Virus record (IMG/VR): IMGVR_UViG_3300029705_000054
Coordinates: 1,687 to 65,686 of that record
Origin: a virus
Lineage: Duplodnaviria > Heunggongvirae > Uroviricota > Caudoviricetes
DNA length: 64,000 nucleotides
Strand: one strand, 5' to 3'
The notes beneath the pieces are model-generated. The model was not told where the DNA came from, did no database searches, and saw only the letters and a program-made list of their open reading frames with translations. Positions 3,151 through 62,532 of this stretch are shown one piece after another (the stretch's first letter is position 1; every line of letters begins with the position of its first letter). The position numbers and the translations under genes are program-made.

Positions 3151-3225
3151 GAAGCGGTATCACAAAGGTAATGAGGTTGACACTATTCAACTGCGTTGTG
3201 GGTTCAATTCCCATTCGCTTCACCA
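3151..3225 (+). ncRNA. tRNA-like element with a perfect acceptor stem, T-arm and CCA but an anticodon loop of only 6 nt
   Basis: Sequence gaagcgg..gtggg ttcaatt cccat tcgcttc a cca. The anticodon stem gttga/tcaac encloses the 6-nt loop cactat. The element sits between a class-A promoter and an RBS. Confidence 0.35.
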
Positions 3226-6384: not shown

Positions 6385-6955
6385 GTGAGGCACAGGGGCG
6401 CAAATGCGCCCCTCATACATAACAAAGGGTAGTTTAATGGAAGAACAGTTGGTTTCGTTTCCAACAGATGTGTGTTCAAATCACACGCCTTTGCAGACCA
6501 TTAAAACCAAAGTCCCCTATGCGCAAGGAGTGGCGAGAAAGCGAGAATGGTCAACCTCGAGGATAGACCTCTGCGACGGCAGAGGTCTTTTTTTGACCGG
6601 CCCAACGGCGGCCGCCGCTGGGCCGATTTGTGCGTTTTTGTGCAAGTTGCACAATTTTCTCACCAAAATTCCTCTCAAATTTGTGCAAATTATTTTCCCA
6701 TTTTCTATTGACAAATTTATCTTTTTATGATATAATATTATCGTAGTCAAGGGGCGGTGACGGATAGAACGACCTTGCGAGGCATCGTCCCGTAGTTGCA
6801 ACCACTGAAAAAAATAAAAAATTTTTGAAAAACTTTTCAAAAACCCCTTGACAAAATCACAAACTTGTGATATAATATATATGTAATCAAGAGGAAAATC
6901 CTCTTGAAATAAAAAATTTTGAAAGGGCGGTCACAGATCGCAAAGGTAGAAAACT

Positions 6956-18923: not shown

Positions 18924-19220
18924 ATGACAGATAATTTTTGGCTTTATAAAGTTACTTGGTTTATTGATGGCGAAACGCGTCAAAATCAAGGAATAGTTTG
19001 CGCAGAATCTTTCGCAGAAGCAGCTGGCAAAGTTGATAAAAACTATGATAATGTTAGTGATATGACTATCATTAGCACTGATTGCTATGAAGTATTTGAC
19101 TTGGGTGATCTTCTTGAATTTCTAAGGATAGATGAAAAGGAAGAACGCTCCGAACTTGGTCCGCAACTTATTGCAGCTCTTGAAGAAGCAATAGCTATTA
19201 CAAAGAGAGAACAAGAATGA
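18924..19220 (+). CDS. hypothetical protein (98 aa)
   Basis: ORF with class-B promoter and an RBS. Confidence 0.5.
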   Translation: MTDNFWLYKVTWFIDGETRQNQGIVCAESFAEAAGKVDKNYDNVSDMTIISTDCYEVFDLGDLLEFLRIDEKEERSELGPQLIAALEEAIAITKREQE

Positions 19221-19981
19221 CAGATGTAATGTCAAGATTAGACCAGCACTATTCTCGTGCTATTGAATACTATGGTAAGGAAGCAGTTCTTGGTGTCTTT
19301 CTTTACGGTTCTTGGAATTATAATACTAATACACCTGATTCTGATGTCGACACCAAGTGCATTGTTATTCCTGACCTTTATCATTTGGCGCTGAAGCCTT
19401 ATGATGTAAAACATCTTCATATCTTTACAGAAGAAGGAAAAGACTTTGAAGTATGTGAGTGTATGACCATTATGCATATGGTAAGTAACTGGAAAAAGCA
19501 GAATATCAACTTTCTTGAGATTATGTTTACTGACTATTGCATTATCAATCCTCTTTATAAAGATATGTGGGAAGAGCTATTTCCTCTTGCCGAGAGAGAA
19601 AAAGTTGCGCGCTATGATTTGCGCCAAGCTATTCGCTCTATGGCGCATCAGGCTATTCATACTATTAAACAAGATCCAGCTGACCTTAAGAAACTTATGA
19701 ATACTGCAAGAATTGCTAATTCTTTGGCACGTCTTGTGACGCATAAAGAAATGCCTTATAAAAATGTAATCTGGCAGAATGATACCGTAAGAGGTATTCG
19801 TACTAATGAAACACCTGTGCCTATCTGTTTTGTCGATGATATGATTCTTTATTTTGAATCTATGATTGAAAAAGCAGAAAATTGGGAAGCAACAGACGAA
19901 GAGTTGGTAGAAAAGGGTAAAGTTAATTGCTTTTTAGACGAATTAATTTTAGATTTAATTGATTATAGGCTTAGTCTTTAA
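19217..19981 (+). CDS. Pol-beta-superfamily nucleotidyltransferase (minimal NTase fold)
   Basis: Motif YGSWNYNTNTPDSDVDTKCIV (GS..x..SDxD). It lies directly upstream of the tRNA island. Confidence 0.5.
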   Translation: MTDVMSRLDQHYSRAIEYYGKEAVLGVFLYGSWNYNTNTPDSDVDTKCIVIPDLYHLALKPYDVKHLHIFTEEGKDFEVCECMTIMHMVSNWKKQNINFLEIMFTDYCIINPLYKDMWEELFPLAEREKVARYDLRQAIRSMAHQAIHTIKQDPADLKKLMNTARIANSLARLVTHKEMPYKNVIWQNDTVRGIRTNETPVPICFVDDMILYFESMIEKAENWEATDEELVEKGKVNCFLDELILDLIDYRLSL

Positions 19982-22384: not shown

Positions 22385-22979
22385 TATTAATTTTCCTATC
22401 GCAGTTTAATTGGTTGCGCAAAGCGGTTATCAAGAGTTAAAGATGAAGGTGGTTTTATAATCAGCGGATTAACCTTTTGAGAAAGGAGCGCCACTCCTGT
22501 CCGAGTGGGAGGATAAATAAAAATCAGGCGCACAGTGCCAACTTGGCTGTGCTTAATGGGAAGTTGGGATAAAGCTCCGAGAGTGCTGTAAACTCTCACT
22601 TTATATCGCGGATGGGCATAGTGCTCACCAGAGCCTCATAAGCTCAGGGTGATCGGGGCAGTACCGATATCCGCACCCAATGCTAAAAGGCGGCATAGAG
22701 CAAAAAGCCTTTCTCTACCTATTCGGAGACTTTGGAAATAGGTAAGCATATAAGATTATGTACGGTTGTCAGTTCGTCGGATTGAAGAAGAACTGGGCGG
22801 CAGGGTGGATGTCGTTCTTAAACAATGAGGTTGCTCACCTCATTCCATCCTATACCTAAAACAAAAAAGACGTTCTCTGGGGAAGATACGAGGACGCAAT
22901 ATGCCAAAAGGGTCGGCGCCCATTGACGCCTCATACGCGTCGAGTGCTTGGATCGACACCAAGTTTTGGCACCATATAT

Positions 22980-23070
22980 GCAGGTCTGGCGAAGAGGTAA
23001 ACGCACCCGCGATTGGAACGGCGGGAAACATACTCCATTGTCGTAGGTTCGAATCCTACGACCTGCTCCA
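22980..23070 (+). tRNA. tRNA-like gene (91 nt) with a perfect 7-bp acceptor stem, T-arm and CCA but an irregular anticodon arm
   Basis: gcaggtc..gtagg ttcgaat cctac gacctgc t cca. The region between the D-arm and T-arm does not form a canonical 5-7-5 anticodon arm. Confidence 0.35.
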
Positions 23071-23326
23071 CCTCCGAGAGCAAATGTGGGAGGCTAAATG
23101 GATGTGCAGTTGACTGACTGAAAGTCACTTTATATGGACGATTAAACCGTTAAGATAGGCGGGCTAGACTGTAAATCTAGCGCCATTGTGGCTCGAGTGG
23201 GTTTGATTCCCTCATCGCCCACCAATACCACTTTAATCAATTACTATGAAACTTCTTTGATTTTTATAAAAATTTATGATATAATAAATATGTAAAATGA
23301 AAGAGAGGAAAAAAGAAAAATGATAT

Positions 23327-23518
23327 GCCGAGATGGTGGAATTGGCAGACACCCTGGACTTGTTGGCTTAATTTAAGAGGTAAAATAGGAAGCCTAGTAT
23401 TGATATATCGAACAAGACCGAGAACAGCATCCAAATGTAAGTTCGAATCTTGCAGTCAGCACCAAAAATCCAGTGTTCAGAGATGAGCGTACGGGTTCGA
23501 GTCCCGTTCTCGGCACCA
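23327..23518 (+). tRNA. tRNA-Leu (anticodon TAA), type II, split after anticodon position 34 by a 103-nt tRNA-like insert. Exons are 23327..23361 and 23465..23518
   Basis: 5' exon: gccgaga tg gtg gaattggcaga cac c ctgga ctt. 3' exon: aaaa tccag, long variable arm, acggg ttcgagt cccgt tctcggc a cca. The two halves are fully complementary and give the anticodon loop cttaaaa. Confidence 0.5.
23362..23464 (+). ncRNA. tRNA-like insert inside tRNA-Leu(TAA): acceptor-like stem gttggct/agtcagc, T-arm-like aag ttcgaat ctt, ends ..agcacca
   Basis: Seen directly in the sequence. It occupies the anticodon loop of the outer tRNA. Confidence 0.45.
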
Positions 23519-23691
23519 ATAACCGACGAAAGCCAGACTCGGTATATAAGTTAGTGGCGCTTCAAGTGGTAGGTTGTGTGTAAACCGATTAAGAAGAGAA
23601 AACGCAAGTGGAACACACATTAGTATTAGGTGCCTACTCGGGGAATACAGGTGGTAGGATAAATGTGACGACCCAGCCAGCCTAATATTAT

Positions 23692-23780
23692 AGAGGATTG
23701 GGTGAGCAGGCTTAAACCAGTGGTTTGCTAAACCACCGAGGGTAATACCTCCACTAGTTCGAATCTAGTATCCTCTGCCA
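23692..23780 (+). tRNA. tRNA-Ser (anticodon GCT), type II
   Basis: Acceptor agaggat/atcctct, loop ttgctaa, long variable arm, T-arm actag ttcgaat ctagt, CCA. Confidence 0.6.
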
Positions 23781-25082
23781 GCTCTCGTAACAACAGCGAG
23801 GCTAAAGGTGAAAATCCCAAAGGTTGAAATGTTGTAGGTAAAGTTTTCCACCGCCGTATCAAAGAGTGGCGTTTGTGCACAGCGAATAGTGCAATCGTAG
23901 CAGTCTTTCAAGGCGCCATATGGGACTGCGCAGAGTACGATAACCTCTGCATTATATGGAGGATGATGCCGGACGGCAAAGCAGCGACGGGAATTCCAAA
24001 GTAGGTTCGACTCCTACAGGCTCCACCAAGGGGTGATTCGTTTGCCACACGAATCCGTAAAACCAAGCGTTAATGGTTATTTACAATAGGTGCCACGAAG
24101 CCGAAGATGGAGGTCGACAGCCACTGCAGGATGTGCCAAGGTTTGAAGAAATGCGTCCAATGAAGTCTTAGGAAGTTTAGAAGCAGCTGTGGTTAACTGG
24201 AGTTAGATGAATAGCCTATTTTGTAATATTTATGACGACCTCTGGAGGGGATGTTCCCCTCATATTAAGGAGTGAGTAGAGAGCGAGGCGGCAGACGCTA
24301 TATAAACAGTGCTGGTTATACTCGGTGAGACTTATATCCGAAAGGCAGCGGTGGGCCAAACATCCGCTGGAGTTTCGCCTCCAAGATGAAGTGCGAGATT
24401 TATAAAGATAGCTTAGTAATAGCGCAGGTTTATCCAACAAGGCTATGAAAGGCGCGGGCCCAGCTTCCCGCATCTAAAAGCTGGAATATAGAGAATGTAG
24501 TGTAACAGTAACACACCGCATTTGGGATGCGGAGTAGCGGGGCAGCACCGACATTTTCTGCCATTTTAAATCAACGCCTTGATGCTGCCAACAAGCATTA
24601 CTCGGCGCCTCGTAAAACATCAGAGTTTGGAGAGTGATTCTCTTGTTGGATATAAAAACTCTCCCTCTCTTTCCTATGGGGAATGGGACTGCATGGAGTG
24701 GTCGTCTGCTTTGCAAGCAGAAGTTCAGATGAGATCGTTACTCATATTCTCCACCATTAAGTTTGAAGGTAGCTTAGTAAAAACCTATCAATCTATTGTG
24801 TTTACTCGTAGCAAAGAAAAATGAGTTGCAGAGAGCTTTTGTCCTAACCACCATTAGGCAAAAGCAAACTCCAAAGGTTTTCATTGATTTTTATTAAAAA
24901 ATATGATATAATATTTATGTAATAAAGATAAGAAAGGAAATAAAGCAAAATGATAAATAGAGAACTTGCAATACTTAATCGTATTAGTATTCTTTAGCGC
25001 GATGCCGCTAATGGAAATATAATCAATAAACTCAAGCGAAAATATAGAGCTATTCAAAAAGCTAACTAAGTAAATAATTATA

Positions 25083-25236
25083 TGAGCCAGTAGCTCAGAT
25101 GGAAGAGCACGTGACTTGTTTGAGTATGTTTAATTGGTAAAGTCTGGGGCTTAGTCGGCTTTAGGTTGTTAGTTCGAATCTAACCTCAAGCACCATTAAT
25201 CACGGGGTCGCGAGTTCGAATCTCGCTTGGCTCACC
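25083..25236 (+). tRNA. tRNA-Lys (anticodon TTT) split after position 34 by a 78-nt tRNA-like insert. Exons are 25083..25116 and 25195..25236
   Basis: 5' exon: gagccag t a gctc agatggaa gagc a cgtga ctt. 3' exon: ttaa tcacg gggtc gcgag ttcgaat ctcgc ttggctc a cca. The spliced loop is cttttaa. Confidence 0.55.
25117..25194 (+). ncRNA. tRNA-like insert inside tRNA-Lys(TTT): 7-bp acceptor stem gtttgag/ctcaagc, T-arm gttag ttcgaat ctaac, discriminator A and CCA
   Basis: Seen directly in the sequence. The interior lacks a clean D-arm and anticodon arm. Confidence 0.45.
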
Positions 25237-25924
25237 ATAAGAAGGAGTAATATGAATAGTAAAGATAAAGGCAATATTGGTGAGGCAGTTGTACTTGCTG
25301 AATTTGTTAAAAATAACATTTAGGTAGCAATCCCTTTTGGAGATAATGCTCGTTATGATTTGATAGCAGAGTTTAATGGAAAATTAAATCGTATTCAAGT
25401 AAAGTATTGTAATCAACAAATTACTGAAAATAATTCTATTGCCTGTCCTTGTGCAAGCAGTACAAACCATACTACCAATAAACATTATAGCACTTACGAG
25501 AATGACATAGATTATTTTTGTTTTTATATCGTAGAATGGAATGAAATTCTTATTCTGCCAATTGAAGAAATTGGTACTAAAAAAGTAATTACTTTTAGAC
25601 AAGATCCTCCAAAAAATAATCAAACTAAAGGGATAAATTTGGTAGAAAATTATCGATTAATTGATTTTCTAAAAAATTTATGATATAATATATATGTAAG
25701 AAATAAAGCGATGCAATATAAACTCCTGACCTGAGTTTCCATCAACAAATTCTCGATTCAAAATTGCCCGAAAGGGGTCGCTAATCGTAATAACATTAAC
25801 TCCGTAGTGAAACGGTAACTTAGGTTGTTCACAAATCTTGTACAAGATTAAAGGAGGAAGGTTGAGTAATCGCCTTTGGAATAGTGCAAATCACTCCTAT
25901 TAGTTAATGTAATTAAGATATTAT

Positions 25925-27125: not shown

Positions 27126-27642
27126 TGGAGCTACTTCCAAGCCTTGAGCAAATGTAGATGACTTCTGGAGCATTCAGGATTATAAGAGTGCTAACCACGA
27201 GCTGACCTCGCAGCACGAGCACAAAAGTGTCAGGGTTTTTATAACAGGGATTGATAAATGCCAGTGTTATAATATCCTTAATATTGATGAAAAGTTTATC
27301 TATAAGTGAATAACCTTGATTTCATTGAGTATTTTGAGGCGAATACTGCTGGATAATCCAGAGTAGGCTTGAGAGAGCGCCCACGAAAATAAACTGAAAT
27401 CAAATGCCGAGAAAATCGTGGATTTCGTCCACCCGAAGAGTAGCTACGGTGAAATAAGTAGGGTGCGATTGGCGCCGAGGATGTGGCGAGGTTCTGGTAG
27501 ACCAATTAAAAATGTCTAAGCCAGATGTAGATTGAAAGATGAAACGGTTATTTACTCGAATTGAGGATGGTAAGCAAATACCACGCCCAAAAGAAAACAA
27601 TGAGCGGTTGGCTGACCTAAAGCTGTCACCTCTTTAATATAT

Positions 27643-40664: not shown

Positions 40665-42101
40665 ATGTATAAAGCATATATAACTACACTGAAAAATGTG
40701 CGTAAGCATCCTAATGCAGATAGACTGCTTCTTGGAGATTGCTTTGGTAATACCGTATGCGTATCCACTAGCTATTTTGAAGGTCAAGTGGGTATTTATC
40801 TACCCACTGATGGTCAGGTATCGGTAGAATTTGCTGAGCATAATAACCTACTCCGTAAGAAAGATGATGCAGGAAACCAGATTGGTGGATACATGGACCC
40901 AGATAAAAGAAATGTAACCGCAATTCGTCTGCGCAGTGAGAAGAGTGACGGTCTTTTCCTTCCTCTATCAGCGCTTGACTATTGCTTTGAGGATGGGGCG
41001 GCCGCCGCTCATCTTAAAGCTGGAGATATAATTGATGGTCTAGTTAACGGACACGAAATCTGCTGCAAGTATATACCTCGTACCAACATTCGCCGCGGTA
41101 CTGTAACTGAAGGCAATAGAACTCGTAAAAAGAAAGTTCCTACTGCACCTCTCTTCAAAGAGCATGCGGATACTGAGCAGTTGGCATATAATCTCGGCGC
41201 TTTTAAAGTAGGTGATGAAATTGAGATCACGCTTAAGATGCATGGAACTAGTCAAAGAACAGGATGTCTACCTACTCTTAAAGGATATAAGCGCAGCTTT
41301 TGGAAGAAGCTTACTCGCAAGGAAGGCACTCCTATTTATGATTGGGGTTATGTTTCTGGCACCCGCCGCGTAGTTCTTGAAAATTATGATGGCGGTTTTT
41401 ACGGAAGTAACGAGTTTCGTGAACAACACTCTAAAATATTCGAGGATAAGCTGAATAAAGGAGAAACGGTCTACTATGAAGTAGTAGGATTCACAACCAA
41501 TGGTGCTCCTATCATGGGTGATGCTTCTAACAAGAAGCTTAATGATAAGGAATTCATCAAGCAGTATGGCGAGATTACTCGTTTCTCCTATGGATGCGAG
41601 CCTTTTGGTTTTAAAGTTACTGAATATGATGAACCTAACGTCATGCCCACTATAGATTATAGCATCCCTCAGTCAGACATCTATGTTTACCGTATGACAA
41701 TGACTAACGAGGATGGTGAGATAGTCGAGTACACTCCTGACCTCATGCGTTACCGTTGCGAGCAGATGGGGGTTAAGACTGTGCCTGTATTTGGAAAAGT
41801 TATATTAAGCGCTGATCGCGCGCATTTTGTAGCACCCGATGGCTATGATCACGATTATCTTCTTAAAGAGGGAATGACTCTTGGTGACCTTGTAATGAAG
41901 ATTGCAGAAGAATTTTATGATGGCGCCGATCCTATTGGAAAGACCCATGTCCGTGAAGGAGTAGTTGTGCGTATAATCAATAGACCTAAGTTCGCCGCAT
42001 ACAAACACAAGAACTTTAGTTTCAAGTGTCTAGAAGGGCTGGTCAAAGCCGAGGCCGCCGCACCTGATATGGAAGAGGCTCAAGAGGTTACTGAAGAATA
42101 A
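40665..42101 (+). CDS. fusion of a tRNA-binding domain (Myf/EMAP-like) with an Rnl2-family ATP-dependent RNA ligase
   Basis: N-terminus VRKHPNADRLLLGDC..VCVSTSYFEGQVGIYLPTDG (tRNA-binding OB fold). Ligase motif I KMHGTSQR, motif IV EGVVVR, motif V AAYKHKNFSFK. Confidence 0.55.
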   Translation: MYKAYITTLKNVRKHPNADRLLLGDCFGNTVCVSTSYFEGQVGIYLPTDGQVSVEFAEHNNLLRKKDDAGNQIGGYMDPDKRNVTAIRLRSEKSDGLFLPLSALDYCFEDGAAAAHLKAGDIIDGLVNGHEICCKYIPRTNIRRGTVTEGNRTRKKKVPTAPLFKEHADTEQLAYNLGAFKVGDEIEITLKMHGTSQRTGCLPTLKGYKRSFWKKLTRKEGTPIYDWGYVSGTRRVVLENYDGGFYGSNEFREQHSKIFEDKLNKGETVYYEVVGFTTNGAPIMGDASNKKLNDKEFIKQYGEITRFSYGCEPFGFKVTEYDEPNVMPTIDYSIPQSDIYVYRMTMTNEDGEIVEYTPDLMRYRCEQMGVKTVPVFGKVILSADRAHFVAPDGYDHDYLLKEGMTLGDLVMKIAEEFYDGADPIGKTHVREGVVVRIINRPKFAAYKHKNFSFKCLEGLVKAEAAAPDMEEAQEVTEE

Positions 42102-43084: not shown

Positions 43085-43417
43085 ATGATAGGTGCAATAG
43101 AAGCTAAAAGAATAGCAGATAGTTTTAATAGTCGCGAAAGAGAACGCGCAAAGCAGTTTGCAATAGATGAAATTAATCGTTTCATTAATCCGCGTATTAA
43201 AAAAGCAGCAAGTGAAGGAGAATACCATGTTTCCTATAAATGGACTAAAGAAGTCTTTTGGGAAAAAGAGTTTACATTCTCAGTATTTGAAGATGTATTA
43301 ATTGATCTTCTTACGGATTTTGGATATAGTGTTGAACTCCAAGAGATCAAAGGATCGGGAACAATAATCCCCGTAGAAATAAAAATATGGATTAGTTGGA
43401 AGGAGATAGAAGAATGA
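43085..43417 (+). CDS. hypothetical protein (110 aa)
   Basis: Class-B promoter and RBS agaagggaataaaaATG. Confidence 0.45.
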   Translation: MIGAIEAKRIADSFNSRERERAKQFAIDEINRFINPRIKKAASEGEYHVSYKWTKEVFWEKEFTFSVFEDVLIDLLTDFGYSVELQEIKGSGTIIPVEIKIWISWKEIEE

Positions 43418-43872
43418 GTAAATTAATTATGATGTGCGGAGTTCCAGGTTCTGGTAAAAGTACTTGGATAAAAAATAATTTTCCAGATATAATACCTGTA
43501 TCAAGAGATGCAATTCGTTTTGAATTGCTTGATAAAAGAGGCGGCGAGTATTTTGACTATGAAGATGAAGTTTTTGATAAGTTTATTTATCAAATTATTG
43601 GCAGTCTTATAGTAGATGAAATTGCAATAGCAGATGCGACTCATCTTAATAAAAAGGCGCGCGCTAAAGTTCTTAATAAAGTCGCTAAATTTGCAGATGA
43701 AATAGAAATAATAGTAATAGAGGTTCCTCTTGAAACTGCACTTATAAGAAACGAACTGCGCGAAGGGCGCGCACGAGTGCCGCGTGGAGTCATTCGTAGA
43801 ATGTTCTTTCAAATGGAGGCACCTACAAGAGATGAAGGTTTTACTAAAATTACTCGTATTAGAGAGTGGTGA
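43396..43872 (+). CDS. polynucleotide 5'-kinase (P-loop kinase domain, T4 Pnk-kinase-like)
   Basis: Walker A MMCGVPGSGKSTW and C-terminal RVPRGVIRRMFFQMEAP, like the T4 Pnk kinase domain. Confidence 0.55.
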   Translation: MEGDRRMSKLIMMCGVPGSGKSTWIKNNFPDIIPVSRDAIRFELLDKRGGEYFDYEDEVFDKFIYQIIGSLIVDEIAIADATHLNKKARAKVLNKVAKFADEIEIIVIEVPLETALIRNELREGRARVPRGVIRRMFFQMEAPTRDEGFTKITRIREW

Positions 43873-44094: not shown

Positions 44095-44643
44095 ATGGGT
44101 AAAATATATGTAACTAGCGATTTGCATCTATCCCATATTCAACCATTTGTATGGGAAGCACGAGGATTCACTTCTCCAGACCATATGAACGAAGAAATTA
44201 TTAAAAGATGGAATGAATTGGTTGATCATGAAGATGATGTCTGGATTCTTGGCGATTTAATGATGAATGATAATGAAAAAGGGGCGGCCGCTCTTAAACA
44301 ACTCAAAGGACATATTCATGTGGTTTGTGGCAACCATTGCACGGATACTCGAATTGCTATATATAAAGAACTTGGATACGATGTTCATTTTGCATATAGG
44401 TTAAAATACAAAAAGAAAAGTTTTTATCTTAGCCATTATCCTACCCTTACAGGCAACGGAAAAGACAAATGTTGGTTAGCTACATGGAATTTACATGGAC
44501 ACACTCACTCTACTTCAAAGTGGTGTGAACACTCTTTTTGCTACAACGTAAATATGGATGCGCATGATTGTAGACCCGTACTACTTGATACAGTTATTGA
44601 AGAGATTACTGAGCATTGGAAGGAGATTCAAAAGAATGATTAA
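44095..44643 (+). CDS. calcineurin-like metallophosphoesterase (candidate RNA-end phosphatase)
   Basis: Motifs DLHLSH, GDLMMND, GNHC, HGHTH. Confidence 0.55.
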   Translation: MGKIYVTSDLHLSHIQPFVWEARGFTSPDHMNEEIIKRWNELVDHEDDVWILGDLMMNDNEKGAAALKQLKGHIHVVCGNHCTDTRIAIYKELGYDVHFAYRLKYKKKSFYLSHYPTLTGNGKDKCWLATWNLHGHTHSTSKWCEHSFCYNVNMDAHDCRPVLLDTVIEEITEHWKEIQKND

Positions 44644-47107: not shown

Positions 47108-47182
47108 TGGGGAGTCGTCGAAAGGTCAAGACCGTGGTCTCTAAAACCACAGACGTAGGTTCGATTCCTACCTCCCCTGCCA
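47108..47182 (+). tRNA. amber suppressor tRNA with anticodon CTA and a tRNA-Gln-like architecture (U1, G73, 3-bp D-stem with large D-loop)
   Basis: tggggag tc gtc gaaaggtcaa gac c gtggt ctctaaa accac agac gtagg ttcgatt cctac ctcccct g cca. Closely parallels the tRNA-Gln(TTG) at 25925. A strong hairpin terminator follows (47190..47218). Confidence 0.7.
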
Positions 47183-61556: not shown

Positions 61557-62532
61557 TAACATTTTTATTTCATATTTTCGCTCTCTTAAAGAAGGAGTTG
61601 AAAGTTTTTTGAGAAAATATCCTTTAAATTTAACAAACATTAAAATAGACCCTCATGAAAAATATTATTGGCTTGGATTTTTAGCTGGAGATGGAAATGT
61701 AGCTAAAAATGAAGCCAGAGTAAGAGTTGAGTTAAAAGATATAGATAGAGAGCAGCTTGAAAATTTACAAGCATTCTTTGAATCTAATGCGCCCATTACA
61801 GAGCGTACTAATAACACTGGATGTCATGCTTTAACTGTATCTATAAACTCGGCAGAGTTAAAACGTTATTTAGCACAATATAATATAGTACCTGCAAAAA
61901 CCTCTATTTTTAGTATTCCCCTTGAAAACATTCCTAATGAATATATTTATGATTTTGCAAGAGGATTGCTAGATGCAGATGGTAGTATTCACATTAGAGA
62001 AGATAGAAACAATATTCCTAGTTTAAGTTTTGTCAGTCAAACTGAGATCTGCACAAAACAAATGCTAGAAATTTTAGAGTTTGATAATAAAGTAAGTCCT
62101 TGTGGAACCTCTGCTTATCAAATTCATAAAGAAGGCGCTGCAGTTGTACAAATTTTAAATAAAATTTATGAACATTCAACCGAGGCCTCTCGGTTGAGAC
62201 GAAAATATGAAATATATAAGGCCCTTAATGGAGCAATCCATTAAGCAAATCATGTGAATTGCTGGAAACCCCTTAGAGTTAATCAAACTACAGCATAAGA
62301 ATGAAAGAAATCTAAGTGCGAATGTTAAAAATTGATTAAATTGGGCAATCAGCAGCCAAGCTCCGAATAGGAGAAGGTTCAACGACTATCCCACTGGAGG
62401 ATGAAATTTCCTCAACAGGAGTAGGGCTTTTATAATAATATAAAAGTAGGTGAAAATCCTTTAAATCGAAGTGCATGACATCCACCGTTTAAAATGGATG
62501 AAGATATAGTCTATTCCCATTAAAATATCTTG
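61557..62532 (+). mobile_element. group I intron (candidate, phage IA-type) carrying a LAGLIDADG endonuclease ORF
   Basis: Conserved core elements seen directly: P-like gaattgctggaaacc (62256), Q aatcagcag (62346), R gttcaacgactat (62377), S aagatatagtct (62501). Confidence 0.55.
61609..62244 (+). CDS. LAGLIDADG homing endonuclease (double-motif), intron-encoded
   Basis: Motifs LGFLAGDGNV and LLDADGSIHI. Confidence 0.65.
   Translation: MRKYPLNLTNIKIDPHEKYYWLGFLAGDGNVAKNEARVRVELKDIDREQLENLQAFFESNAPITERTNNTGCHALTVSINSAELKRYLAQYNIVPAKTSIFSIPLENIPNEYIYDFARGLLDADGSIHIREDRNNIPSLSFVSQTEICTKQMLEILEFDNKVSPCGTSAYQIHKEGAAVVQILNKIYEHSTEASRLRRKYEIYKALNGAIH

What the first reader, a model, noticed from the sequence alone, without database searches (positions are those of the whole stretch)
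23327..25236. Two tRNA genes interrupted at the same anticodon-loop position by tRNA-like elements ending in CCA
tRNA-Leu(UAA) (23327..23518) and tRNA-Lys(UUU) (25083..25236) each consist of two perfectly complementary halves. Both are split immediately after position 34 (c-u-U | insert | A-A-a-a for Leu, U-U-a-a for Lys). The inserts are 103 and 78 nt long. Both begin with gtt, have a 7-bp acceptor-like stem plus a canonical T-arm (ttcgaat), and end in ..agcacca, so the CCA is encoded and abuts the 3' exon. U34|A35 is the insertion site of the classical cyanobacterial tRNA-Leu(UAA) group I intron, but these inserts are far too short to be group I introns and instead look like minihelix substrates for RNase P and tRNA 3'-end processing. 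Processing of the inner element would cut the outer tRNA into halves that then need re-ligation. As far as I know, a tRNA-like element nested in a tRNA anticodon loop has not been described as an intron class. It could be a new kind of tRNA intron, a mobile tRNA-like element, or a regulated self-cleaving tRNA.
Basis: seen in the sequence. Interest (0 to 1): 0.9.

Follow-up and report, generated by a model that had tools for sequence, protein, structure and literature searches.

The report
tRNA-shaped introns inside phage tRNA genes
Two transfer-RNA genes of this large gut-type phage are each split in the anticodon loop by a small tRNA-shaped insert ending in CCA. The same design recurs in at least 27 variants in related phages, which points to an unexplained kind of tRNA intron probably cut out by the cell's ordinary tRNA-trimming enzymes.

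Summary
Window 23327-23518 is a class II tRNA-Leu(UAA) carrying a 103-nt insert. Both inserts follow U34, start with a 7-bp acceptor stem, have a T arm, and end in ACCA directly against the 3' exon.

Pattern scans and an unbiased splice-out scan found 27 distinct inserts of 49-123 nt in phage and metagenome contigs. They sit in tRNA-Leu(UAA), Lys(UUU), Ile(UAU), Thr(UGU), Gln(UUG) and a class I tRNA(UAA). The last exon base is always U. CCA is nearly always encoded. Both the inner stems and the exon-spanning outer stems show strong covariation.

One insert, 97-99% identical, sits in both Lys and Leu genes, so it is mobile. The phage encodes an RNA ligase, a polynucleotide kinase and a phosphoesterase, and an I-Ssp6803I-like endonuclease gene lies beside tRNA-Lys.

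My best reading (0.5) is an intron removed by RNase P and a 3'-end endonuclease, with the exons sealed by the ligase. No RNA data exist.

Partial precedent: the "enigmatic" Lak megaphage tRNA introns (Devoto 2019), one of which was noted to look like a tRNA.

The parts
23275..23295 (+). Promoter-like repeat TATGATATAATAAATATGTAA, about 30 nt upstream of the split tRNA-Leu. It is followed by an AG-rich leader.
   Evidence: 20 copies in the window against 0.27 expected, with exact matches at 23275 and 24902. The same cassette precedes the split class I tRNA(UAA) of relative L002.
23327..23361 (+). tRNA-Leu(UAA) 5' exon, positions 1-34, ending in C32 U33 U34.
23362..23464 (+). 103-nt tRNA-like insert. 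It has acceptor stem GUUGGCU/AGUCAGC, a D-like hairpin with GG, a conserved 45-nt central segment, T arm GUAAG-UUCGAAU-CUUGC, discriminator A and CCA.
   Evidence: Rfam tRNA hit of 34.8 bits. The homologue in L019/L039 is 83% identical and carries compensatory changes in the acceptor and T stems. Covariation is shown.
23465..23518 (+). tRNA-Leu(UAA) 3' exon (A35 to A76, long variable arm, encoded CCA).
24902..24922 (+). Promoter-like repeat upstream of a 41-codon ORF (24951-25076) and the split tRNA-Lys.
25084..25117 (+). tRNA-Lys(UUU) 5' exon, ending in C32 U33 U34.
25118..25195 (+). 78-nt tRNA-like insert. It has acceptor stem GUUUGAG/CUCAAGC, a D-like arm with GG, a degenerate middle, T arm GUUAG-UUCGAAU-CUAAC, discriminator A and CCA.
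   Evidence: Rfam tRNA hit of 31.4 bits. Junction statistics are and covariation.
25196..25237 (+). tRNA-Lys(UUU) 3' exon (U35 to A76, encoded CCA).
   Evidence: Covariation of the outer Lys stems is shown.
25252..25683 (+). PD-(D/E)XK endonuclease gene of the I-Ssp6803I type, starting 15 nt downstream of the split tRNA-Lys. It has one in-frame TAG. It is a candidate free-standing homing endonuclease.
   Evidence: With TAG read as Gln the match to Pfam PDDEXK_5 is full length, E=3.4e-33. It hits PDB 2OST at E=1.7e-5. A second PDDEXK_5 ORF lies about 1 kb from the split tRNA-Lys of L056.
40665..42101 (+). RNA ligase, the candidate enzyme for joining the exons.
   Evidence: PHROG 968 'RNA ligase', E=1.5e-56, full length. 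TIGR02306 (DRB0094 family), N-terminal part, E=4e-9. Homologues are annotated 'RNA ligase' in Bacillus phages. Relatives with split tRNAs keep a ligase at this locus or near the tRNA island.
43396..43872 (+). Polynucleotide 5'-kinase (end-healing).
   Evidence: PHROG 505, E=6e-20. Pfam AAA_33. Kinase domain of TIGR04075 bacterial Pnkp, E=5.6e-12.
44095..44643 (+). Phosphoesterase, a possible 3'-end healing enzyme.
   Evidence: PHROG 547, E=1.6e-42. Weak match to the SbcD-related phosphoesterase TIGR00024.
19217..19981 (+). Nucleotidyltransferase directly upstream of the tRNA island. Its role is unknown; it may act on RNA 3' ends.
   Evidence: PHROG 388, E=3e-13. Weak Pfam matches to NTP_transf_2 and RlaP.

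Best explanation
These are introns of an uncharacterised, protein-dependent type. Each is a small mobile tRNA-shaped element (acceptor stem, D-like hairpin, T arm, NCCA, no working anticodon arm) lodged in the anticodon loop of a phage tRNA gene, right after U34 or occasionally U35.

Proposed pathway:
- The whole gene is transcribed from its own phage promoter.
- The insert folds on its own like a pre-tRNA. Bacterial RNase P then cuts at its 5' end. That site has U at -1, G1-C72, A73 and CCA, which are the favoured determinants. The cut leaves the 5' exon with a 3'-OH.
- A tRNA 3'-end endonuclease (RNase Z/BN-like, or an unknown enzyme) cuts right after the insert's CCA. This leaves the 3' exon with a 5'-phosphate.
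- The two exons stay held together by the outer acceptor and anticodon stems. The phage RNA ligase (40665-42101) seals the nicked anticodon loop, with the kinase and phosphoesterase available if the ends need healing.
- The products are mature tRNA-Leu(UAA) and tRNA-Lys(UUU).

At the DNA level the element spreads between tRNA genes, probably helped by nearby homing endonuclease genes whose target site it interrupts.

Shown here: the anatomy, its recurrence, the covariation, mobility between tRNA species, and the presence of the enzymes. Inferred: every RNA-processing step.
For: Anatomy and junctions:
- Exact removal of the inserts restores canonical 7-nt anticodon loops and intact CCA-ending tRNAs in 24 of 24 complete cases.
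- In all 27 distinct inserts the exon base at -1 is U. Position +1 is G in 24 and C in 3, and always pairs with position 72. The discriminator is A in 24.
- When CCA is not required by the scan, 23 of 24 elements detected still carry NCCA flush against the 3' exon.

Conservation:
- The inner acceptor and T stems are 100% paired. 11 of 12 pairs show changes on both sides, and 0 of 500 shuffles reach this.
- In the pattern scans, which did not require inner pairing, every hit with a 5/5 outer anticodon stem also had a 7/7 inner acceptor stem.
- The middle of the insert is degenerate and ranges from almost nothing to about 70 nt. Only 2 of 27 inserts pass ARAGORN at default settings. 19 of 27 keep a GG in the D-like loop. 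So what is conserved is what the end-processing enzymes read.
- The outer tRNA-Lys genes are 100% paired, with compensatory changes in 6 of 7 acceptor pairs and 3 of 5 anticodon-stem pairs. Both helices span the exons.

Functional need: the split genes are the only tRNA-Lys(UUU) and tRNA-Leu(UAA) genes in the window. AAA is the third commonest codon.

Enzymes: a ligase, kinase and phosphoesterase cluster is present. It is kept in relatives with split tRNAs: a DRB0094-type ligase at the same locus in contig 005988, and a ligase 3.6 kb from the split tRNA-Thr in L011.

Mobility: one insert, 97-99% identical, lies in Lys and Leu genes whose exons are 58-60% identical. Homing endonuclease genes lie next to several split genes.

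Outside support: the Lak megaphage introns carry a tRNA-like minihelix at their 3' end that stops 2-3 nt before the 3' exon, without CCA. This fits a 3' cut defined by tRNA 3'-end processing.

Established knowledge, from memory:
- RNase P prefers U(-1) and reads RCCA.
- RNase P leaves 3'-OH and 5'-P ends, as does RNase Z.
- ATP-dependent RNA ligases join 3'-OH to 5'-P.
Against: - No transcript evidence of any kind was available.
- The enzyme for the 3' cut is the weak point. In many bacteria CCA blocks RNase Z, and CCA-containing precursors are finished by exonucleases, which would destroy the 3' exon. Endonucleolytic cutting right after CCA is documented only for a few enzymes (Thermotoga RNase Z, E. 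coli RNase BN; from memory). The host is unknown.
- The ligase resembles the nick-sealing DRB0094/Rnl5 type rather than T4 Rnl1, the known anticodon-loop specialist. It is also present in a relative (contig 006221) where no split tRNA was seen, so it need not exist for splicing.
- The kinase and phosphoesterase would be unnecessary for RNase P/Z ends. This hints at a different nuclease chemistry, or simply at a repair role against host anticodon nucleases.
- In Lak phages a 27-30-nt segment separates the 5' exon from the tRNA-like part. RNase P alone cannot define the 5' splice site there.
Confidence: 0.5

Rival explanations
1. The inserts are true introns, but a dedicated endonuclease removes them rather than RNase P/Z. 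The enzyme could be phage- or host-encoded and may recognise the tRNA-like fold or the GACUU| context. It would leave 2',3'-cyclic phosphate and 5'-OH ends. The phage kinase and phosphoesterase would heal these ends before the ligase seals them, as in T4 tRNA repair or fungal Trl1 splicing.
For: - A kinase and a phosphoesterase sit beside the ligase. They are conserved as a block in relatives. They would be needed only for cyclic-phosphate and 5'-OH ends.
- Lak introns have an extra conserved 5' hairpin segment that RNase P cannot account for.
- All 27 5' exons end in GACUU or GACUUU, which could be a nuclease recognition motif.
Against: - No candidate splicing endonuclease was identified among the ORFs scanned.
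- This does not explain why exactly the RNase P determinants are kept: U-1, G1-C72, A73, CCA flush with the junction, and the T arm stacked on a 7-bp acceptor stem.
- The heal-and-seal genes are equally well explained as a counter-defence against anticodon nucleases.
Confidence: 0.2
2. The inner element is the real product. It would be a stable tRNA-like small RNA with a CCA end, acting for example as a decoy or sponge for tRNA-targeting host defences, or as a substrate for charging or the CCA-adding enzyme. The outer tRNA would serve as an expression and processing scaffold, and may or may not be rejoined.
For: - Some inserts carry well-conserved internal sequence. The 45-nt core is shared by the window insert and L019, and other cores are shared by L054 and L056 and by L052 and L068, at 83-89% identity.
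- U2-G71 is kept in 15 of 24 inserts.
- Several split genes occur per genome.
Against: - The internal parts differ completely between subfamilies and shrink to 49-nt minimal forms.
- No free-standing copies were found.
- The outer tRNAs are under clear purifying selection for an intact cloverleaf. They supply otherwise missing isoacceptors.
Confidence: 0.12
3. The inserts are dead ends. They would be selfish tRNA-derived insertions, or insertions that merely shield the gene from a homing endonuclease. They would inactivate the tRNA genes, with no splicing.
For: - The inserts are mobile.
- Endonuclease genes are adjacent.
- No known bacterial pathway splices such an insert.
Against: - All 24 complete outer genes keep perfect cloverleaves, with compensatory substitutions across the exon boundary.
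- The insert boundaries are exact to the nucleotide in 27 of 27 cases.
- The split copies are the only Lys(UUU) and Leu(UAA) genes in the island.
- Each has its own promoter.
Confidence: 0.08

Closest known systems
'Enigmatic' tRNA introns of Lak megaphages (Devoto et al. 2019, Nat Microbiol 4:693; PMC6784885)
   Same: - The hosts are large, TAG-recoded gut phages.
- The inserts lie in the anticodon loops of phage tRNA genes, have no Rfam class and show presence/absence alleles.
- The authors noted that the tRNA-Thr(TGT) intron may itself encode a tRNA.
- My scan of their Table S6 finds a 7-bp acceptor stem plus T-arm minihelix at the 3' end of all four introns.
   Different: - In Lak the tRNA-like part follows a 27-30-nt hairpin segment. 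It has no CCA. As drawn, the introns lie after the anticodon, and they sit in Tyr, Phe, Thr and Gly genes.
- Here the tRNA-like element is the whole insert, starts at the first base after U34 or U35, and ends in an encoded CCA.
- The paper proposed no mechanism and did not define the class.
Group I intron of tRNA-Leu(UAA) in cyanobacteria and plastids, and other bacterial or phage tRNA group I introns
   Same: - The host gene and insertion site (U34|A35) are the same; the site is from memory.
- Both are bacterial-type tRNA introns.
- Both are associated with homing endonucleases. I-Ssp6803I lies in the tRNA-fMet intron.
   Different: - The inserts here are 49-123 nt and have no group I core. 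RF00028 hits only 62177-62532 in the window.
- They cannot self-splice by that chemistry.
Archaeal and eukaryal tRNA introns and split tRNAs (bulge-helix-bulge, EndA/Sen endonuclease plus RtcB or Trl1 ligase)
   Same: - Splicing would be protein-dependent cut-and-ligate splicing of an anticodon-loop insert.
- Archaeal introns are also mobile between tRNA genes.
   Different: - There is no bulge-helix-bulge motif. Instead a 7-bp helix starts at the 5' junction and 4 unpaired nt (NCCA) precede the 3' junction.
- The setting is bacterial or phage, where no splicing endonuclease is known.
Phage T4 tRNA repair (PrrC cut beside U34 of tRNA-Lys, healed and sealed by Pnkp and Rnl1)
   Same: - It involves breaks in the anticodon loop of U34 tRNAs, notably Lys(UUU).
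- It uses a phage-encoded kinase, phosphatase and RNA ligase.
   Different: - T4 repairs damage made by a host nuclease.
- Here the break would be programmed by an insert in the gene.
- The ligase is DRB0094/Rnl5-like rather than Rnl1.
tRNA punctuation processing in mitochondria, and tRNA-like elements such as mascRNA
   Same: A tRNA-shaped module directs RNase P and RNase Z to cut a longer transcript at both of its ends, which frees the flanking RNAs.
   Different: Here the flanking RNAs are the two halves of another tRNA and must be rejoined. No such case has been characterised.

Membership tests
Group I intron | Conserved P3-P9 catalytic core, usually more than 200 nt, matching Rfam RF00028 | tested here: not met
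   No RF00028 hit in 22800-25800 even at E<=1. The only hit in the window is 62177-62532. The inserts are 49-123 nt.
Archaeal/eukaryal BHB tRNA intron | Bulge-helix-bulge at the exon-intron junctions (two 3-nt bulges separated by a 4-bp helix) | tested here: not met
   By inspection of 27 junctions, the 5' junction abuts a 7-bp helix directly. The 3' junction follows 4 unpaired nt (NCCA) and precedes 3-4 unpaired loop nt.
Archaeal/eukaryal BHB tRNA intron | EndA/Sen-type splicing endonuclease present | tested here: inconclusive
   About 40 window ORFs were scanned with Pfam, PHROGs and NCBIfam. None was found. Small ORFs, the rest of the genome and the host were not examined.
Lak-type phage tRNA intron (Devoto 2019) | Insert in the anticodon loop of a phage-encoded tRNA gene, with no Rfam intron class | tested here: met
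Lak-type phage tRNA intron (Devoto 2019) | tRNA-like acceptor stem plus T-arm module at the 3' end of the insert | tested here: met
   Window inserts. Lak introns: using the sequences.
Lak-type phage tRNA intron (Devoto 2019) | 5' hairpin segment of about 27-30 nt before the tRNA-like module, and no encoded CCA | tested here: not met
   In all 27 inserts here the acceptor stem starts at the first insert base and NCCA ends the insert.
Functional tRNA gene (inner element) | Complete cloverleaf with a 7-nt anticodon loop, U33 and a defined anticodon | tested here: not met
   ARAGORN at default settings accepts only 2 of 27 inserts, and not the two window inserts. The Rfam hits of 31-35 bits rest on the acceptor, D and T parts, with 7-39 nt irregular middles.
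RNase P substrate (bacterial type) | Acceptor stem stacked on the T arm, 3' RCCA, and favourable -1/+1/73 nucleotides | tested here: met
   A 7+5 bp stack is present in 27 of 27 inserts. Position -1 is U in 27 of 27. G1-C72 occurs in 24 of 27, A73 in 24 of 27, and CCA in 23 of 24 when not imposed by the scan. Actual cleavage cannot be tested with these tools.
Spliced intron (any class) | Mature RNA with joined exons exists | not testable with these tools
   No transcript data were accessible. The only indirect support is the purifying selection on the outer cloverleaf.
tRNA-derived transposable element (SINE- or MITE-like) | Target-site duplication or terminal inverted repeats, and dispersed copies outside tRNA genes | tested here: not met
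   There is no duplication at the junctions (CUU|...|AAAA or UUAA). A scan with an insert-specific 5' motif found copies only inside tRNA anticodon loops.
Homing-endonuclease-assisted mobile intron | Endonuclease gene inside or next to the intron, and the same intron at the same site in different genes or genomes | tested here: inconclusive
   An I-Ssp6803I-like ORF lies next to the split tRNA-Lys here, and another lies in L056. An HNH ORF is adjacent in L022/L058. The same insert occurs in Lys and Leu genes. However, the split tRNA-Leu in the window has no adjacent ORF, and cleavage specificity is untested.

The most novel reading that the evidence does not exclude
This would be a third mechanistic class of tRNA intron, alongside the self-splicing and BHB/endonuclease classes. 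The intervening sequence disguises itself as a pre-tRNA, so the universal tRNA end-processing enzymes (RNase P at its 5' end, a 3'-end endonuclease at its CCA) excise it. A phage RNA ligase then rejoins the exons. The element is mobile among U34 tRNA genes of large TAG-recoded phages. It would also explain the 'enigmatic' Lak megaphage introns.
Probability: 0.45. Interest if true: 0.9.

Novelty: new variant of a known kind. Interest (0 to 1): 0.8.

Why it matters
Known bacterial and phage tRNA introns are self-splicing ribozymes. Enzyme-dependent tRNA splicing is regarded as an archaeal and eukaryotic trait. An insert that borrows RNase P and 3'-end processing for its own excision, then relies on an RNA ligase, would be a new splicing route.

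It would also:
- give phage RNA ligases a role beyond repair;
- explain the tRNA introns left 'enigmatic' in Lak megaphages;
- show a new way for selfish elements to live inside essential genes.

There are two practical consequences:
- Standard tRNA finders miss these genes. Default ARAGORN missed both here, so phage tRNA repertoires and codon-supply inferences are being undercounted.
- The design is a natural template for ligase-dependent, switchable tRNAs.

Tried and rejected
- Group I or other Rfam families in the inserts: none at E<=1.
- BHB motif: absent on inspection.
- Cultured relatives:
  - megablast and blastn of the island against 50,697 GenBank phages gave nothing useful;
  - the nearest named relative, Phage Phass-1, has a large tRNA island but no nested tRNA.
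- Bacterial and archaeal genomes: the seven pattern hits in 185,579 species genomes were all ordinary tRNAs.
- Free-standing copies of the insert: none. The five extra hits were ordinary tRNAs that happen to follow GTTTGARTA.
- An 8-nt complementarity between the window Leu insert (CCGAGAAC) and the outer acceptor strand looked like a guide sequence. It is not kept in the homologous L019 insert, so I treat it as chance.
- The short ORF that starts in the leader and runs into tRNA-Leu (ATG ATA TGC ...) is best read as a reused promoter-leader cassette, not a gene.
- Ligase co-occurrence:
  - the first peptide-pattern scan missed the contigs with split tRNAs;
  - direct inspection then showed a divergent DRB0094-type ligase at the same locus;
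  - so that scan says nothing about absence.
- ARAGORN cannot fix the 3' boundary by itself, because it accepts excisions 1-5 nt past the acceptor strand. The boundary rests on restoring a 7-nt loop.
- Single-sequence folding of the precursors is uninformative, with z-scores of -1.1 to -2.0.
- The orphan tRNA/tmRNA-like 3' end at 23989-24028 could not be paired with any 5' half.
Full report
**1.

The sequence shows a class II tRNA-Leu(UAA) at 23327-23518. It consists of a 35-nt 5' exon ending C32-U33-U34, a 103-nt insert (23362-23464) and a 54-nt 3' exon that begins A35-A36-A37-A38.

A tRNA-Lys(UUU) lies at 25084-25237. It consists of a 34-nt 5' exon, a 78-nt insert (25118-25195) and a 42-nt 3' exon.

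Default ARAGORN misses both genes. With introns allowed it finds them. The Rfam tRNA model spans the whole Lys gene at 50.1 bits. It also hits each insert on its own at 34.8 and 31.4 bits, against a gathering score of 29.

Each insert starts with a 7-bp acceptor stem. Each carries a T arm with loop UUCGAAU stacked on that stem. Each ends in A-CCA directly against the 3' exon. Neither matches a group I intron or any other Rfam family.

**2. It is a family, not a curiosity**

Relatives were reached in two ways: through flanking proteins and through DNA patterns in IMG/VR, JGI metagenomes and GTDB genomes.

I then ran a scan with no constraint on exon sequence. It excises any element made of a 7-bp acceptor stem, a 5-bp T stem and NCCA, and asks whether ARAGORN now calls a tRNA across the junction.

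Together these gave 27 distinct inserts of 49-123 nt. They come from more than 20 phage or metagenome contigs. None came from the bacterial or archaeal genome collection.

The host genes are:
- class II tRNA-Leu(UAA)
- an odd class I tRNA with anticodon UAA
- tRNA-Lys(UUU)
- tRNA-Ile(UAU)
- tRNA-Thr(UGU)
- tRNA-Gln(UUG)

Several phages carry two or three split genes. Random excisions give a junction-spanning tRNA in 7 of 20000 trials, against 31 of 554 for the tRNA-like elements.

Most examples were found with patterns that fixed GACTT|G...GCACCA|WWAATC. The range of host anticodons is therefore under-sampled. The four cases found without those constraints still follow U34 or U35, after GACUU.

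**3. What is conserved**

*Junctions.*
- The last exon base is U in 27 of 27 cases.
- The first insert base is G in 24 and C in 3, and always pairs with position 72.
- The discriminator is A in 24.
- When the scan does not require CCA, 23 of 24 elements still have NCCA flush with the 3' exon.

*Inner stems.* All cells are paired. 11 of 12 pairs show changes on both sides. No shuffle of 500 and no slid register comes close. In the pattern scans, which imposed no inner pairing, every hit with a perfect outer anticodon stem also had a perfect inner acceptor stem.

*Middle of the insert.* It is free to vary. The minimal 49-nt forms keep only a 3-bp hairpin with a CGGU loop between the acceptor strand and the T arm. 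Longer forms have irregular or no anticodon arms. Only 2 of 27 inserts pass ARAGORN at default settings. 19 of 27 keep a D-loop-like GG.

So selection keeps the acceptor/T-arm stack, the elbow and the CCA. These are the parts read by RNase P, RNase Z and the CCA-adding enzyme. It does not keep the decoding part.

**4. The outer tRNAs are alive**

Exact removal of the insert gives a canonical 7-nt anticodon loop and a CCA-ending cloverleaf in all 24 complete cases.

Across seven split tRNA-Lys genes, every stem cell is paired. 6 of 7 acceptor pairs and 3 of 5 anticodon-stem pairs carry compensatory double changes. Both helices are formed between the two exons.

In the window the split genes are the only Lys(UUU) and Leu(UAA) genes. 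AAA is the third commonest codon. Each split gene has its own copy of the phage promoter. This argues against pseudogenes.

**5. Mobility**

One 78-nt insert is 97-99% identical in a tRNA-Lys(UUU) gene (L048) and in two different tRNA-Leu(UAA) genes (L063, L067). The exons of those genes are only 58-60% identical. Other subfamilies share their cores but differ in the acceptor stems (L054 against L056).

No target-site duplication and no free-standing copy was seen.

Fifteen bases downstream of the split tRNA-Lys is an ORF (25252-25683). Read with TAG as Gln, it is a full-length PD-(D/E)XK endonuclease (Pfam E=3.4e-33). It is homologous to I-Ssp6803I (PDB 2OST, E=1.7e-5). From memory, that enzyme is the homing endonuclease of a tRNA-fMet intron and cuts the anticodon-loop region of the intron-less gene.

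A second such ORF lies near the split tRNA-Lys of L056, and an HNH ORF abuts the split tRNA-Leu of L022/L058. The split tRNA-Leu in the window has no such neighbour. Endonuclease-assisted homing, with the insert protecting its own genome's target site, is therefore plausible but unproven.

**6. Enzymes at hand**

The window encodes:
- an RNA ligase at 40665-42101 (PHROG 968, E=1.5e-56; N-terminal match to the DRB0094 family; homologues annotated 'RNA ligase' in Bacillus phages)
- a polynucleotide kinase at 43396-43872
- a phosphoesterase at 44095-44643
- a nucleotidyltransferase at 19217-19981, directly before the tRNA island

The relative with a split class I tRNA(UAA), contig 005988, has a divergent DRB0094-type ligase at the same position between the sigma factor and the kinase. 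Contig L011 has a 67%-identical ligase 3.6 kb from its split tRNA-Thr. A relative in which I saw no split tRNA also has the cluster. The ligase is therefore available but not diagnostic.

**7. Most likely mechanism (inference)**

The insert folds as a pre-tRNA inside the anticodon loop of the outer tRNA.
- RNase P cuts between U(-1) and G1. From memory, U(-1), G1-C72, A73 and RCCA are the favoured bacterial determinants, and the CCA contact is what keeps cleavage in register when -1 can pair with 73, as U-A can here.
- A 3'-end endonuclease cuts after CCA.
- The resulting 3'-OH and 5'-phosphate ends, held in place by the outer stems, are sealed by the phage ligase.

The 3' cut is the weakest step. 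CCA usually inhibits RNase Z, and exonucleolytic trimming would consume the 3' exon.

The main rival keeps the intron idea but uses an unknown nuclease that leaves cyclic-phosphate and 5'-OH ends. That would give the kinase and phosphoesterase a job.

Two lesser rivals remain. In one, the insert is the useful product and the tRNA is a scaffold. In the other, the genes are simply disrupted.

**8. Prior knowledge**

Full-text searches for tRNA-like or nested tRNA introns found nothing direct.

One paper is relevant. Devoto et al. 2019 described 'enigmatic introns' in Lak megaphage tRNAs. They remarked that the tRNA-Thr(TGT) intron 'itself may encode a tRNA', and reported 'no hit in rfam' for the others.

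I scanned their four published intron sequences. All four carry a 7-bp acceptor stem plus T-arm minihelix at the intron's 3' end, stopping 2-3 nt before the 3' exon. In Lak this module follows a conserved 27-30-nt hairpin segment and has no CCA.

The window's inserts are thus a cleaner variant of the same unexplained kind. The tRNA-like module is the whole intron, it starts at the first base after U34, and it carries CCA.

I rate the finding a new variant of a known (but mechanistically unknown) kind, with high interest.

**9. Context**

The window comes from a large TAG-recoded phage. It has in-frame TAG codons and a tRNA(CUA). It also encodes gyrase, an NAD-dependent ligase, a sigma-70 factor and a vault-protein-like ORF. 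Its nearest named relative is Phage Phass-1 of the 'Caudoviricetes code 15 clade'.

Noticed in passing
window 25252-25683; 47108-47182: The phage appears to read TAG as an amino acid (code 15). The PDDEXK_5 ORF matches Pfam over its full length only if its in-frame TAG is read through. A tRNA with anticodon CUA is encoded at 47108. The nearest GenBank relative is filed under 'Caudoviricetes code 15 clade'.
   Followed up: partly
window 22980-23070 and 6423-6494: Two tRNA genes have 8-nt anticodon loops. ARAGORN reports four-base anticodons, tgga and tcgt. They might be frameshift-type or otherwise unusual decoders.
   Followed up: no
window 3151-3225: A tRNA-like gene lies directly after a promoter copy. 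It has a good acceptor stem, D arm, T arm and ACCA, but only a 6-nt anticodon loop. ARAGORN and Rfam both miss it. Its fold z-score is -2.7.
   Followed up: partly
window 23989-24028 (and 23781-24028): An orphan 3' end resembling tRNA or tmRNA: T arm GUAGG-UUCGACU-CCUAC, then AGGCUCC-ACCA. I found no matching 5' acceptor strand. It follows about 200 nt of GC-rich non-coding sequence. There is a weak partial hit to the ends of the tmRNA model.
   Followed up: partly
window 23136-23220 and 24491-24559: Two degenerate tRNAs. One is tRNA-Tyr(GUA)-like, with an A3-C70 mismatch and an irregular T stem; it appears only as a sub-threshold tRNA-Sec hit. The other is tRNA-Pro(UGG)-like with an aberrant T arm.
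   Followed up: no
window 62177-62532, with ORF 61609-62244: A group I intron (RF00028, 78 bits) lies next to a LAGLIDADG endonuclease ORF. It apparently interrupts a protein-coding gene downstream of an AAA_24 gene.
   Followed up: no
L003 8877-9491; window spacers e.g. 23520-23690, 23781-24490, 27126-27642: A relative carries a ROOL RNA (175 bits) inside its tRNA island. The window's island has several long GC-rich, ORF-free spacers that may hold other structured RNAs. None reached an Rfam gathering score.
   Followed up: no
L002 1188-1313, L008 1798-1929, L056, L062; L131 28356-28429: Class I tRNAs (short variable arm) carry leucine anticodons: UAA in relatives of the window phage, UAG and CAG in Phage Phass-1. 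Their amino-acid identity is unclear. In L002 such a tRNA sits behind the same promoter-leader cassette as the window's class II tRNA-Leu(UAA).
   Followed up: partly
window, 20 sites (e.g. 21254, 21547, 23275, 24902, 25679): A highly repeated promoter-like motif, TATGATATAATnnnTATGTAA, occurs 20 times against 0.27 expected, almost all on the + strand. It is often followed by an AG-rich leader and ATGATA.
   Followed up: partly
window 30765-33245: An 826-aa ORF contains major-vault-protein shoulder and repeat domains (Pfam E=6e-26). This is unusual for a phage.
   Followed up: no
Lak megaphage tRNA introns (Devoto 2019, Table S6): All four published Lak introns (Tyr, Phe, Thr, Gly) share one layout: a short hairpin, an A-rich linker (AAAUUAAA-like), then a tRNA-like acceptor stem plus T-arm minihelix ending 2-3 nt before the 3' exon. 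The paper flagged only the Thr intron as tRNA-like.
   Followed up: partly
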